Shown here: positions 39,230 through 41,679 of the stretch, one piece after another
How positions within the stretch are numbered: the first letter of the stretch is position 1
Layout: every line of letters begins with the position of its first letter
Assembly (NCBI GenBank): GCA_019057795.1
Contig: JAHLWS010000073.1
Location: 32,001-96,000, forward strand
DNA: 64,000 nt
Source of the DNA: Promethearchaeota archaeon
Lineage (GTDB): Archaea > Asgardarchaeota > Lokiarchaeia > Sigyniarchaeales > SOKP01
Reading direction: 5' to 3'
Translations under genes and position numbers: made by a program
Notes under the pieces: model-generated
The model's input: only the letters and a program-made list of their open reading frames with translations
Told to the model about the DNA's origin: nothing
Database searches by the model: none

Positions 39230-39970
39230 ATGTGTCGTATGTTTTTTCAGTGTTCGCTTGAACCCTTTCAAATTGATTTTAAAATTTTAAAAAAATTTGT
39301 AGCCTCGTGCCATTGGCATTATTTAAGGAAGTATAATCTTTTTGGGCACCATGGATTGGGTTGGGGCTTCGCTTATATCTCTGAAGGTGACAACAAACTC
39401 GTAATAAAGCGAGATATAACTCAAATATACTACGCGGACTGGAAAAACCTCACTAAGATTAAAACTCGTTTCCTTTTAGTCCACGCGAGAAAAACCCTCC
39501 CTTGGAAAAAGAACTTTAGAGACGTACATCCTATAGATATTGGTGAGAAATACATCATAACTCATAATGGAATTATAAAAGGCTTTCCAGATAAAAAATT
39601 AAAAAACCCAAAATTGGAAAAAATTTATAGTAAAACTAACTTGGACACTCGAAAATATCTATGTGCTATTATTGACGAACTACAAGAAGGTAAAAGTTTA
39701 AAGAATACCTTGGAAACCCTTTTTAAAGAGATTGAGATAGGTGCTGGCGCGAACGCATTTCTATTTAATTCGCACACCTGCAATGTCATCACTAATCATA
39801 AAACTAATTTTAACGGCAGGCACCACACCTTATTTTTAAGAAAAAAACAAAAAGAAATCCTTGTAAGCACTACTCCCTTAACTGAGAATGCAAAAGAAAT
39901 TCCTAATTACTCTTTAATTCAAATTGATTTAAATAATCTAAACCTGAATGCTATGAAATTAGAATTTTAG
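39230..39970 (+). CDS. Class II glutamine amidotransferase (Ntn hydrolase, YafJ/EgtC-like)
   Basis: N-terminal MCRM; H..GWG, HARK, VHP and HNG motifs. Confidence 0.85.
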   Translation: MCRMFFQCSLEPFQIDFKILKKFVASCHWHYLRKYNLFGHHGLGWGFAYISEGDNKLVIKRDITQIYYADWKNLTKIKTRFLLVHARKTLPWKKNFRDVHPIDIGEKYIITHNGIIKGFPDKKLKNPKLEKIYSKTNLDTRKYLCAIIDELQEGKSLKNTLETLFKEIEIGAGANAFLFNSHTCNVITNHKTNFNGRHHTLFLRKKQKEILVSTTPLTENAKEIPNYSLIQIDLNNLNLNAMKLEF

Positions 39971-40025: not shown

Positions 40026-40374
40026 CTACTCTCCAGATTCTTCTTCAGCAGCTAATTCTTCCTCTAATTCTTCCAATGGAACGGGTGCCGGTGTTTAACT
40101 TGAATTCTGCGATATGCACGAATCCTGTAAGCATACTGTACCCGATCCATATAGCAATAATTGCTATTAATAATACCATAATCCAGAGTGGTAGAACTGT
40201 GAATAATCTCCAATCGAGCCAATCGATATTAAATATTCGGAAGACAGCGTCCCAATTTGGGTCCCCACCAAGAGTGCCAAACCATAAATCAACGACGCTT
40301 CCCAGAGTATAAACTACCGCGATAAGGATACCAAGGAGCATGACGATTGCGCCAATTATCTTATCTTTTGCCAT
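40026..40374 (-). CDS. DPM2-like 2-TM protein interrupted by a predicted 31-nt BHB intron (40126-40096); spliced product 105 aa
   Basis: Removing 40096-40126 joins ...WIGYSMLT to TPAPVPLEELEEELAAEEESGE* (TAG 40028-40026); the unspliced ORF frameshifts and stops at 40045. Confidence 0.8.
40096..40126 (-). other. Predicted pre-mRNA BHB intron (31 nt)
   Basis: Helix GCTT/AAGT, bulges AC|A and TA|A, intron stem GGATTC/GAATTC plus TGC/GCA. Confidence 0.8.
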
Positions 40375-40707
40375 TATCAATACCTTTGTTTTAAGTTTTT
40401 AGTATATTTTTTCAAGCACATTTACATTGCTTAATATTATTTTTAAAATTATATTAAATTAAAACCATTCGTTAAAGGACGAATTTTTATGGATTACAAA
40501 ATCCTTAATGCCCTTAAAACTGGGCTTTCAGCTGATATTTGGCACCTCAAGCATTTTCGAACTCATAACGAAATTTTTTCTAACATTTATGAACCCAAAC
40601 CACTTTCTGATAGACTTAGAAAAGTACTCTTTAATTGTGATGTTTCATAAATTGATAATATAATGCGAAGAGAGTTCGAAAAATCGCGATTTTAAAGTGG
40701 TAAAATT

Positions 40708-41679
40708 ATGTCAAATAGCAACCAATACGTTCTAATTATTGGTTCGAGTAATATGGATTTAAACATATACTCGCAACGGTTACCGGAACCTGGTGAAACT
40801 GTAACTGGGGGCACATTTAAGCAATTCCTGGGAGGAAAAGGTGCGAATCAAGCGGTAGCTTCTGTGAGATCGGGGGCTAATACTATTTTTATTGGTAAAG
40901 TCGGCATAGATTCGTACGGAGACCAAATGATTTCTCAATTAAACAATGAAGGCGTGGACATAGAACATATTATAAGGGATCCTTACGAATCGAGCGGAAT
41001 CGCTTTTATAATGATAGACGAAAACGGAGAGAACGTGATTAGTGTAGCTCCTGGGGCAAATTTCAATTTAACGCCAGAAGACATTCGAATTAATTCCGAA
41101 GTCATTAAAGACGCTAACGCTTTGATCGTTCAGATGGAAATTCCCATTGATTCAATTGAAGAAATTTTTAAAATAGCAGTTCAAGGGAAGGCTGTAAAAA
41201 TTCTTAATCCTGCGCCGTTAAAACCTATAAGTTTATCAATTTTGAGAAATATTGATGTAATAATCCCCAACGAGGGAGAACTACTACGTTTACATTCGCT
41301 TCTAAATCTTAAAGAGTTAGTTGGCAAATCTAAAGGTAAAATTATTCAAGCTTCAAAAGATATTTCAAAATTAGGAGTTAAAACAATCGTAACTACATTA
41401 GGTAGTAAAGGATGTATGGTATATAGCGCTATAGAAGATAAAATTACTGAAATACCCGCTTTTAAGGTTAAACCCGTTGATACAGTAGGCGCTGGAGATT
41501 GCTTCAACGGAGTTTTAGCAAGCAAGTTAAATCAAGGGGAAGATTTAATCACTTCGGTAAAGTATGCAACAGTTGCTGCCTCAATAGCAGTAACGAGGAA
41601 AGGAGCGCAAGAATCAATGCCATTTATTGATGAAATTGAAGCACGCTTCAAAAAATATATAGATATTTATGTGATATAG
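40708..41679 (+). CDS. rbsK: Ribokinase (PfkB family)
   Basis: GSSNMD, GGKGANQAVA, NPAP, PNEGE and DTVGAGDCFNG motifs. Confidence 0.92.
   Translation: MSNSNQYVLIIGSSNMDLNIYSQRLPEPGETVTGGTFKQFLGGKGANQAVASVRSGANTIFIGKVGIDSYGDQMISQLNNEGVDIEHIIRDPYESSGIAFIMIDENGENVISVAPGANFNLTPEDIRINSEVIKDANALIVQMEIPIDSIEEIFKIAVQGKAVKILNPAPLKPISLSILRNIDVIIPNEGELLRLHSLLNLKELVGKSKGKIIQASKDISKLGVKTIVTTLGSKGCMVYSAIEDKITEIPAFKVKPVDTVGAGDCFNGVLASKLNQGEDLITSVKYATVAASIAVTRKGAQESMPFIDEIEARFKKYIDIYVI

What the first reader, a model, noticed from the sequence alone, without database searches (positions are those of the whole stretch)
40026..40374. Frameshifting 31-nt BHB intron inside a protein-coding gene: candidate pre-mRNA splicing in an Asgard archaeon
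Seen: the minus-strand mRNA reads ...AT GCTT AC|A GGATTC G TGC ATATC GCA GAATTC AAGT TA|A ACACCG.... This forms a bulge-helix-bulge: central helix GCTT/AAGT, two 3-nt bulges (ACA, TAA), a 6-bp intron stem GGATTC/GAATTC, and an imperfect exon-exon stem. Cutting after the second base of each bulge (the archaeal EndA rule) removes exactly 40126-40096 (31 nt). That converts the odd basic tail GFVHIAEFKLNTGTRSIGRIRGRISC* into TPAPVPLEELEEELAAEEESGE*, which fits my recollection of the TPxP...EE tail of archaeal homologues. The structure-based cut sites and the frame restoration agree independently. Established: archaeal mRNA introns are rare; the well-studied case is crenarchaeal cbf5. Eukaryotic HAC1/XBP1 splicing also uses an endonuclease and a tRNA ligase, and in XBP1 a short intron shifts the frame. 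Inference: EndA/RtcB splicing may control or switch the C-terminus (basic versus acidic) of a glycosylation-related membrane protein. Such introns would be mis-annotated as frameshifts.
Basis: partly seen in the sequence, partly recalled or inferred. Interest (0 to 1): 0.95.

Follow-up and report, generated by a model that had tools for sequence, protein, structure and literature searches.

The report
Mini-intron in Asgard membrane-protein gene
A 31-base tRNA-type (bulge-helix-bulge) intron sits in the most conserved part of a small membrane-protein gene of a Loki-type Asgard archaeon, and comparison with about 100 relatives shows that it must be cut out of the mRNA; in the papers I could search, this kind of splicing is documented in archaea for hardly any protein gene.

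Summary
On the minus strand, 40126-40096 (31 nt) folds with its flanks into a bulge-helix-bulge (BHB). Cutting after the second base of each bulge restores ...SMLT|TPAPVPLEELEEELAAEEESGE*.

That tail is invariant in 68 intron-free Asgard orthologues. About 20 distinct alleles carry 30-32 nt (once 44 nt) inserts at this site (A) or at a second site 26 nt downstream (B); one genome has both.

Evidence that the insert is spliced out:
- The helices covary.
- The BHB-rule cut equals the sequence-restoring cut in 17 of 19 alleles.
- Exon 2 of the intron-bearing alleles changes almost only synonymously in the spliced frame (513 synonymous, 13 non-synonymous), and not in the other two frames.
- The genome encodes two EndA paralogues and RtcB.
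- One public contig matches a two-intron relative at every aligned base over 586 nt but lacks both introns exactly.

No spliced RNA was seen for the window's own allele, so splicing is inferred, not shown. The proposed basic/acidic "switch" and the "glycosylation" label are weakly supported or unsupported.

Earlier, mostly unchecked, notes of this scan report similar introns in this genome and in at least 61 genomes. I found no paper reporting them in Asgard protein-coding genes.

The parts
40026..40374 (-). Whole gene (pre-mRNA coding region) of a conserved Asgard small two-TM membrane protein; the spliced product is 105 aa
40127..40374 (-). Exon 1 (ATG 40374 ... ends with AC of the split Thr codon)
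   Evidence: The 82-aa product is 55-95% identical to orthologues in 76 Asgard genome loci, with a few more distant ones at 31-52%
40096..40126 (-). 31-nt BHB intron (site A)
   Evidence: Absent at exactly these bases in 68 orthologues
40026..40095 (-). Exon 2: A of the split Thr codon, then TPAPVPLEELEEELAAEEESGE and TAG
   Evidence: 513 synonymous against 13 non-synonymous codon differences among 14 intron-bearing alleles in this frame
40129..40132 (-). Central helix, 5' strand GCUU (exon 1)
   Evidence: Paired in 100% of cells with 40098-40101
40098..40101 (-). Central helix, 3' strand AAGU (intron)
   Evidence: Variants AAGC, GAGC, CAAC and CGAU keep the pairing with the exon
40126..40128 (-). 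5' bulge ACA; predicted cut between 40127 and 40126
40095..40097 (-). 3' bulge UAA; predicted cut between 40096 and 40095
40102..40125 (-). Intron hairpin: GGAUUC / GAAUUC stem, bulged G, UGC/GCA stem and AUAUC loop
   Evidence: 7 of 9 pairs show changes on both sides across site A and site B alleles
40133..40144 (-). Exon-exon (outer) helix, 5' strand: CGGGU at 40144-40140, GU at 40136-40135, U at 40133
   Evidence: the pair AGY/ACR covaries (C-G in 6 alleles, U-A in 3). Exon pairing is higher in intron-bearing alleles
40082..40094 (-). Exon-exon (outer) helix, 3' strand: A at 40094, AC at 40092-40091, ACCCG at 40086-40082
40069..40070 (-). Site B (between G 40070 and A 40069, in CUCGAAG|AAUUGG of relatives; here UUGGAAG|AAUUAG): empty in this window, but holds a related 30-31 nt BHB intron in six relatives

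Best explanation
The 31 nt at 40126-40096 are an archaeal bulge-helix-bulge intron in the pre-mRNA of a small, Asgard-wide, two-TM membrane protein. The transcript folds so that exon 1 (GCUU) pairs with the 3' end of the intron (AAGU). This 4-bp helix lies between two 3-nt bulges and is closed by an intron hairpin on one side and an exon-exon helix on the other. The splicing endonuclease, probably a two-subunit (alpha-beta)2 EndA, cuts after the second base of each bulge, and RtcB joins the exons. Only then does the mRNA encode the invariant C-terminus SMLTTPAPVPLEELEEEL.... Splicing is most likely constitutive. The intron is young and unstable in evolution: it is present or absent among near-identical alleles, it sits at either of two sites 26 nt apart, and it is accompanied by about 20 nt of co-varying exon sequence on each side.

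Shown: the anatomy, the comparative pattern, the selection on the spliced frame and the presence of the enzymes.

Inferred: cleavage and ligation in vivo, which enzyme does it, and that splicing is constitutive.
For: 1. Orthologues. 68 intron-free loci read straight through ...GYSMLTTPAPVPLEELEEEL. The inserts lie exactly at the predicted cut sites: 31 nt in 11 distinct site-A alleles, 32 nt in L021/L090, 44 nt in L080, and 30-31 nt at site B in L017, L062, L092, L093, L075 and L036.

2. Cut rule. In 17 of 19 alleles, the excision that restores the conserved peptide is the one with a 4/4 central helix in BHB register. The other two (L075, L080) have 3/4. The background for a 4/4 helix is about 2% of the (position, length) combinations tested.

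3. Covariation. In the 66-nt site-A alignment, 91.8% of cells are paired, against 21-50% when partners are slid, and 6 pairs show double changes. In the combined A+B alignment, 90.5% are paired against 23-45%, 10 of 13 pairs covary, and 0 of 500 shuffles reach the observed score. L021 against L090 shows CCAGU/ACUGG becoming CCGGU/ACCGG. The exon Leu codon CTT or TTG is matched by intron AAGU or CAAC.

4. Selection. Among 14 intron-bearing alleles, exon 2 has 513 synonymous against 13 non-synonymous codon differences in the spliced frame, and 5/521 and 0/551 in the other two frames.

5. Exon flanks. Flanks co-vary with intron presence. Exon-exon pairing is 7.0 of 8 against 5.3 of 8, p = 3.7e-5.

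6. Enzymes. Two EndA paralogues and RtcB are encoded in the genome. A preprint reports the same two-paralogue pattern in most Asgard genomes it examined (10.64898/2026.10.13.758758).

7. The intron-free twin. Contig L106 (ENA ERZ25073504, 586 nt) has no mismatch to the L017 locus (one 1-nt difference in a poly-A run) but lacks both 31-nt introns exactly. A 30-kb contig of the same ENA series carries both.

8. Other genes. Other genes of this genome are split the same way. NAD synthase matches Pfam profile positions 4-143 on one side of a 30-nt BHB insert and 145-242 on the other. rpl11 carries a 28-nt GCAU/AUGC BHB insert.
Against: - No RNA evidence exists for this allele. The one RNA-library contig that covers the site (X17) carries the intron-containing form, with 2 mismatches. 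This may be pre-mRNA or carried-over DNA.
- Whether L106 comes from RNA or from DNA is unknown.
- The outer helix is imperfect: U-A, then an A.C mismatch, then U-A and G-C. The fold's z-score is modest at -1.6.
- Several relatives have a mismatch next to the 5' bulge.
- My genome-wide scans found no statistical excess of BHB motifs that fuse long ORFs over wrong-frame controls, so BHB shape by itself proves little here.
- The alleles are phylogenetically related, so the covariation counts overstate the number of independent events.
Confidence: 0.85

Rival explanations
1. The insert is not removed. The gene makes a 109-aa protein with a basic tail, or it is a decaying pseudogene in these lineages.
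For: Gene callers annotate the 109-aa form. An RNA-library contig retains the insert.
Against: The out-of-frame downstream segment keeps coding for TPAPVPLEELEEEL with almost only synonymous change (513/13). The frame that would be read unspliced shows 0/551. The insert-encoded peptides vary freely (GFVHIAEFKLN, VFEHFAGFKLN, KSAHFAGFKLN, CSQYFTGYTTK) while the RNA pairing is kept. The site-B insert of L075 carries an in-frame TAG.
Confidence: 0.05
2. The frame is restored during translation, by ribosome hopping over about 31 nt as in T4 gene 60, or by frameshifting, and not by RNA splicing.
For: A stable hairpin lies in the skipped stretch. At site B, the TCGAAG direct repeat would allow take-off and landing on identical GAA codons.
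Against: At site A, take-off at ACA and landing on the only downstream ACA would give MLT-PAP, one Thr short of the invariant MLTTPAP. In L021 no matching landing codon precedes ACC CCA (direct reading). A simple frameshift would leave the 10 variable insert residues in the protein. The conserved 4-bp helix with two 3-nt bulges is the EndA signature, not a bypass signal.
Confidence: 0.02
3. Splicing is real but regulated. Unspliced mRNA gives an alternative basic-tailed isoform or an 'off' state, in the manner of HAC1/XBP1.
For: The intron shifts the frame near the 3' end, so both products are nearly full length. Transcription and translation are coupled in archaea, so some unspliced message will be translated. 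These are inferences, with no tool result behind them.
Against: The unspliced tail is not conserved. Most orthologues, including near-identical alleles, have no intron at all, so no conserved regulatory role can depend on it.
Confidence: 0.08
4. The 31 nt are an assembly or sequencing artefact, or a DNA-level insertion of a mobile element unrelated to RNA processing.
For: Short direct repeats flank the site-B inserts: TCGAAG, and 9 nt in L036.
Against: The same insert occurs in independent assemblies from several studies and in DNA runs that hold the whole stretch. The repeats are what a palindromic UCGA central helix produces. The covariance model finds no other copy in the genome.
Confidence: 0.01

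Closest known systems
BHB intron in the cbf5 pre-mRNA of Crenarchaeota (Watanabe 2002; Yokobori 2009, PMC2738675)
   Same: A short intron (16-44 bp in cbf5) in a protein-coding gene, often frameshifting. [quoted passage not shown] It is present or absent among relatives, and the host has a two-subunit splicing endonuclease.
   Different: The gene and the phylum differ (Asgard/Promethearchaeota). There are two alternative insertion sites in one gene, both occupied in one genome. Turnover is very rapid among near-identical alleles, with co-varying exon flanks. Splicing here is not experimentally shown.
Archaeal tRNA and rRNA BHB (hBHBh') introns, including the heavily interrupted Asgard tRNA genes (10.64898/2026.10.13.758758)
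   Same: The same motif geometry (4-bp helix, two 3-nt bulges, cut inside each bulge), similar length (the tRNA median is about 22-23 nt), and the same presumed enzymes. Introns sit where exon sequence can complete the motif.
   Different: The host RNA is an mRNA without a tRNA scaffold, so the outer helix is made from synonymous codon choices. Removal must also restore a reading frame.
EndA-processed BHB in a Haloferax volcanii mRNA (Schwarz 2020, PMC7714728)
   Same: An mRNA as substrate of the archaeal splicing endonuclease.
   Different: The text I read says only that one additional mRNA is cleaved by EndA. Here the cut-and-join must restore a conserved coding sequence.
HAC1/XBP1 unconventional splicing (IRE1 plus tRNA ligase/RtcB)
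   Same: A small frameshifting intron near the 3' end of the coding region changes the C-terminus. Ligation is by a tRNA-type ligase (established knowledge).
   Different: The endonuclease is IRE1, which recognises twin 7-nt stem-loops, not EndA and a BHB. That splicing is a regulated stress switch, and nothing here indicates regulation.
Translational bypassing in phage T4 gene 60
   Same: An untranslated gap with a hairpin inside a coding region.
   Different: Bypassing needs matched take-off and landing codons. At site A these would give the wrong peptide (see rival explanations).

Membership tests
Archaeal BHB (hBHBh') intron | 4-bp central helix made of exon 1 and the 3' part of the intron | tested here: met
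   GCUU/AAGU. 100% of cells are paired in 11 site-A alleles and in 13 A+B alleles, and 3 of 4 pairs covary between sites
Archaeal BHB (hBHBh') intron | Two 3-nt bulges on opposite strands, each 3' of its central-helix strand | tested here: met
   ACA and UAA. The minimum-free-energy fold widens the 3' bulge to 5 nt because of an A.C mismatch in the outer helix
Archaeal BHB (hBHBh') intron | Flanking helices h (exon-exon) and h' (intron), each with at least 2 Watson-Crick pairs (definition in PMC7714728) | tested here: met
   h': 6 bp plus 3 bp. h: U-A, mismatch, U-A, G-C, plus a distal CGGGU/ACCCG. One h pair covaries. In some relatives the h' pair next to the bulge is mismatched, which is the relaxed form
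Archaeal BHB (hBHBh') intron | Cutting after the second bulge base on both sides yields the functional product | tested here: met
   It restores the invariant SMLTTPAPVPLEEL in the window and in 17 of 19 alleles with a 4/4 helix, and in 2 of 19 with a 3/4 helix
Archaeal BHB (hBHBh') intron | The host encodes the splicing endonuclease and the RtcB ligase | tested here: met
   PF01974 matches twice (97.7 and 70.5 bits) and PF01139 once (561 bits)
Archaeal BHB (hBHBh') intron | The intron is actually excised and the exons ligated in RNA; the intron is released, often as a circle | tested here: inconclusive
   No spliced RNA contig was found for this allele. Contig L106 matches a two-intron relative at every aligned base minus both introns, but its library type is unknown
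DPM2 / PIG-P family (small ER glycosyltransferase-complex subunits) | A match to PF07297 or PF08510 above the curated cut-off | tested here: not met
   Best DPM2 E-value 0.0056 and best PIG-P 2.9e-5, all below the gathering scores (27.3 and 39.3 bits), though hit by 29 and 26 of 31 members. Atlas scores are 0.84-0.87, which are leads only
Multi-copy mobile mini-element | Further copies of the same sequence family elsewhere in the genome | tested here: not met
   Covariance model R1 finds only the locus itself (E = 2.8e-8); the next hits have E > 4

The most novel reading that the evidence does not exclude
The intron is a mobile cassette. It spreads between co-existing Lokiarchaeial populations by homologous recombination, dragging about 20 nt of structure-forming exon sequence on each side. 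It has moved between two sites 26 nt apart in the same gene: the 11-nt core GCAUUUCGCUG is shared by site-A and site-B introns. It is lost precisely through cDNA of spliced mRNA. This would be a live system of intron gain, sliding and loss in protein-coding genes of the closest prokaryotic relatives of eukaryotes, in a genome where further genes (NAD synthase, rpl11, thiolase) are split the same way.
Probability: 0.4. Interest if true: 0.9.

Novelty: new member of a known kind. Interest (0 to 1): 0.8.

Why it matters
In the literature I could search, endonuclease-dependent splicing of an archaeal coding sequence is documented only for crenarchaeal cbf5 (PMC2738675). One Haloferax mRNA is also reported as an EndA substrate (PMC7714728).

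Here the same mechanism is inferred for a different, Asgard-wide gene in the lineage closest to eukaryotes. These cells have no nucleus to separate splicing from translation, which bears directly on ideas that introns drove that separation.

The locus is also an unusually clean natural experiment. It offers about 20 alleles with an intron and 68 without, two insertion sites, compensatory changes in both intron and exon, and a near-identical intron-free twin contig. Questions of how such introns arrive, move and leave become testable.

In practice, such genes are mis-annotated as frameshifted or truncated: the public protein set holds the 109-aa read-through form.

Tried and rejected
1. RNA evidence. 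Four RNA or possibly-RNA runs were laid on the stretch. The X16 contig is an intron-free relative, with exon flank GGATATTCAATGCUCAC as in L003, so it says nothing about splicing. The loose end in X19 is the same. The X17 contig holds the intron-containing form but is joined to the upstream part on the opposite strand, probably a template-switch artefact at the stem base. The result is inconclusive, and both caps are spent.

2. Genome-wide BHB scan. The strict motif gives 35,524 hits with a flat length distribution. ORF-fusion 'rescue' gives 240 hits against 204-244 for wrong-length controls. An ORF-pair scan shows no excess of the compatible frame. The number of mRNA introns in this genome therefore cannot be estimated this way. 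One top hit (C31) was two adjacent TldD/PmbA genes, a false positive.

3. rpl11 insert 1. I could not fit it to the canonical cut rule.

4. Covariance model of the intron. It finds no other copy in the genome.

5. Function. Pfam and NCBIfam give nothing above their cut-offs, and PDB sequence search gives nothing. Structure prediction was not attempted, because a two-helix hairpin would not discriminate between families.

6. Rfam. No family matches the locus.

7. Origin of L106. Its 5' end lies 25-34 nt downstream of a TATA-like box, but it also lies next to an A12 run that could break an assembly, so this is not decisive.

8. Literature. Five searches found no report of BHB introns in Asgard protein-coding genes.

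Full report
**What is there**

On the minus strand a small gene starts at ATG 40374. Read straight through, it gives 109 aa ending ...GYSMLTGFVHIAEFKLNTGTRSIGRIRGRISC*. The stretch 40094-40026 in another frame reads TPAPVPLEELEEELAAEEESGE*. Removing exactly 40126-40096 (31 nt) joins AC|A and links the two.

- a central helix GCUU/AAGU;
- bulges ACA and UAA;
- an intron stem GGAUUC/GAAUUC, topped by UGC/GCA and an AUAUC loop;
- an imperfect exon-exon helix.

The unconstrained minimum-free-energy fold recovers these elements.

**Is the fold more than chance?**

By itself, no. The genome is AT-rich, and my strict BHB definition (central helix 4/4, inner helix at least 5 of 6, outer helix at least 3 of 4) is met 35,524 times at lengths of 24-48 nt. 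It is met 1,340 times at 31 nt, about 1.4e-4 per position, and no length is preferred. The z-score of the fold is only -1.6. What lifts the case is that the structure-defined cuts coincide with independent evidence.

**Orthologues**

The 82-aa exon-1 product has 384 relatives, all from Asgard metagenome-assembled genomes (MAGs) or environmental assemblies. Most are 105 aa long and end ...SMLTTPAPVPLEELEEELAAEEESGE. A minority of 109-aa proteins have a variable insert after SMLT and a shifted basic tail.

In 76 genome loci, 68 read straight through the invariant WIGYSMLTTPAPVPLEELEEEL, which is the most conserved part of the protein. A DNA pattern scan of metagenomes and look-ups of single proteins added more insert-bearing alleles.

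The inserts fall into two classes:
- **Site A**, the window's site. The insert is 31 nt in 11 distinct alleles, 32 nt in L021/L090 and 44 nt in L080.
- **Site B**, 26 nt downstream, at CUCGAAG|AAUUGG. The insert is 31 nt in L017, L062, L092 and L093, and 30 nt in L075 and L036.

L017 has both. The L075 insert carries an in-frame TAG.

**Structure conservation**

- In the 66-nt site-A alignment, 91.8% of cells are paired, against 21-50% when partners are slid by 1-3 columns. Six pairs change on both sides, against 0-2 in the controls. The exon-exon pair formed by the third positions of a Ser and a Thr codon covaries: AGC...ACG in 6 alleles and AGU...ACA in 3.
- When site A and site B introns are aligned together in 38 columns without gaps, 90.5% of cells are paired, 10 of 13 pairs covary, and the central helix is paired in every sequence. 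It is GCUU/AAGU, GCUU/AAGC or GCUU/GAGC at site A and UCGA/UCGA at site B. None of 500 shuffles reaches the observed score.
- The 32-nt introns add two textbook compensations. The exon Leu codon TTG (giving GUUG) is matched by intron CAAC or CGAU, and CCAGU/ACUGG becomes CCGGU/ACCGG.
- Minimum-free-energy folds of most alleles recover the BHB on their own.
- For 17 of 19 alleles, the excision that restores the conserved peptide is the one with a 4/4 central helix in BHB register. The other two have 3/4. About 2% of all (position, length) pairs give 4/4 by chance.

**Selection on the spliced frame**

Among 14 intron-bearing alleles, codon differences in exon 2 are 513 synonymous against 13 non-synonymous in the spliced frame. 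In the other two frames, including the one read without splicing, they are 5/521 and 0/551. The insert-encoded peptides vary freely.

So the acidic tail is made in these organisms, and the basic read-through tail is not under selection. This argues against a pseudogene, against a functional alternative tail, and against the proposed basic/acidic switch.

Translational bypassing is also unlikely. At site A the only matching landing codon would give MLTPAP instead of the invariant MLTTPAP, and L021 has no matching landing codon at all (direct reading).

**Machinery**

The genome is a 4.95-Mb MAG in 87 contigs from a sediment metagenome. It encodes two EndA paralogues of about 200 aa, and RtcB. 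A recent preprint reports the same two-paralogue pattern, consistent with an (alpha-beta)2 enzyme, in most Asgard genomes it examined. This enzyme type is the one linked to relaxed BHB substrates and to the cbf5 mRNA intron in Crenarchaeota.

**RNA-level evidence**

For the window's own allele there is none. Of four runs laid, two gave contigs of intron-free relatives. One RNA-library contig carries the intron-containing form, joined oddly on the opposite strand. Neither shows nor excludes splicing.

The nearest thing to direct evidence concerns a relative. Contig L106 (ENA ERZ25073504, 586 nt, coverage 11) has no mismatch to the L017 locus of MAG ABR11 and one 1-nt length difference in an A-run. 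It lacks both 31-nt introns exactly at the predicted junctions. Other relatives differ from it by 30 or more substitutions.

A sister assembly of the same ENA series holds a 30-kb contig with both introns. L106 starts 25-34 nt downstream of a TATA-like box, as a transcript would, but it also starts next to an A12 run.

- If L106 is RNA-derived, it shows double splicing.
- If it is DNA, it shows precise loss of both introns within one population, as expected from recombination with cDNA of a spliced message.

I could not tell which.

**Evolutionary dynamics**

On a tree of exon 1, intron states are mosaic among near-identical alleles. Well-supported branches force at least 8 changes for site A and 5 for site B.
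- L081 (A only), L092 (B only) and L017 (A and B) are close kin.
- L018 (no intron) and L085 (A) are almost identical.

Substitutions between such pairs cluster in the roughly 20 nt on each side of the intron, at about ten times the background rate. Intron-bearing alleles share GGGUACAGYAUGCUUAC|AACRCCGGCACCC, while intron-free ones share GGAUAUUCNAUGCUCAC|NACUCCAGCACCU. Intron-bearing alleles also have more exon-exon pairing, 7.0 against 5.3 of 8 pairs, p = 3.7e-5.

The simplest reading, which is an inference, is that intron and flanks travel together by homologous recombination. Site-A and site-B introns share an identical 11-nt core, GCAUUUCGCUG (L017-A against L093-B), which suggests movement between the two sites. 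The family is not multi-copy: a covariance model finds only the locus itself in this genome.

**Context in the genome**

Notes of earlier first-stage readers list many BHB-like inserts in other genes of this genome, and similar cases in at least 61 genomes. These are leads, not evidence. I checked three:
- **NAD synthase.** The domain is split exactly at a 30-nt BHB insert: Pfam profile positions 4-143 on one side and 145-242 on the other.
- **rpl11.** The gene is in three pieces. Its second insert is a canonical 28-nt BHB (GCAU/AUGC, AA|A), but the first did not fit my cut rule.
- **A thiolase.** It is plausibly split by 30 nt.

My own genome-wide scans could not show a statistical excess over wrong-frame controls, and one top candidate was simply two adjacent genes. 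The number of such introns therefore remains open.

**The protein**

It is a protein of about 105 aa with two transmembrane helices, found across the sampled Asgard lineages. It has no family match above the curated thresholds. Consistent but sub-threshold similarity to DPM2, PIG-P and DPM3 makes 'glycosylation-related' a lead and no more.

**Comparison with what is known**

Mechanistically this is the cbf5 type of archaeal pre-mRNA intron, in a new gene and a new phylum. Five full-text searches found no report of BHB introns in Asgard protein-coding genes. The nearest is a 2026 preprint on Asgard tRNA introns.

I file it as a new member of a known kind. It has added interest from the two-site polymorphism, the co-varying exon flanks and the Asgard setting.

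Noticed in passing
L097:347-376 (-) = G000:C69:3647-3676: The NAD synthase gene is interrupted by a 30-nt insert with a BHB (GGUG/CACU helix, bulges AU|U and AG|A). Exon 1 matches PF02540 positions 4-143 and exon 2 matches 145-242.
   Followed up: yes
L100 (G000:C73:108301-109100), minus strand; about 12 kb beyond the window's end: Ribosomal protein L11 gene is in three pieces, with a 10-codon micro-exon GPAVGPTGIN. Insert 2 (28 nt) is a canonical BHB, GCAU/AUGC with AA|A cuts. Insert 1 (about 30 nt, containing a TAA) did not fit the canonical cut rule in my hands.
   Followed up: partly
L098:975-1004 (+) = G000:C11:43775-43804: A thiolase gene has a 30-nt insert (CUGG/CCAG helix, exon helix CUUCU/AGAAG). 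Thiolase_N matches upstream of it and Thiolase_C downstream.
   Followed up: partly
L106 (ENA ERZ25073504 NODE_197358) against L017:1450-2097: A 586-nt public contig has no mismatch to a MAG locus but lacks both of its 31-nt introns exactly. Whether the library is RNA or DNA is unknown.
   Followed up: partly
window 40076-40151 (run X17): An RNA-library contig carries 40076-40135 inverted relative to 40151-40417. The breakpoints lie at the base of the CGGGU/ACCCG exon helix. It looks like template switching at a stable stem.
   Followed up: no
L036:958-1022, L017:1786-1851 and other site-B alleles: Site-B introns are flanked by direct repeats: TCGAAG, and 9 nt (CCACTCGAA) in L036. The palindromic UCGA helix explains only part of this, so the repeats may hint at how the intron arrived. 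The L036 insert is in frame without a stop.
   Followed up: no
L021 (DATKTW010000178.1): A contig filed under a Nanopelagicaceae (actinobacterial) MAG carries this Asgard gene with a 32-nt intron. It is probably a mis-binned contig.
   Followed up: no
L080:3194-3272: A 44-nt insert at site A has a relaxed BHB (central helix 3/4, inner helix 5/6) and no significant fold (z = 0.2). It may be an independent or an expanded intron.
   Followed up: partly
window 39230-39970 (+) and 40708-41679 (+): The neighbours (a GATase_4-like gene convergent with the small gene, and a PfkB-family kinase divergent from it) keep the same arrangement in distant relatives (L093, L101, L104, L111). No functional link is evident.
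   Followed up: no
window 39889-39952 (+): A weak, sub-threshold Rfam match to a C/D-box snoRNA family (sn2317; 21.9 bits against a gathering score of 50; E = 0.21), overlapping the 3' end of the GATase-like gene (39230-39970, +). Probably chance.
   Followed up: no
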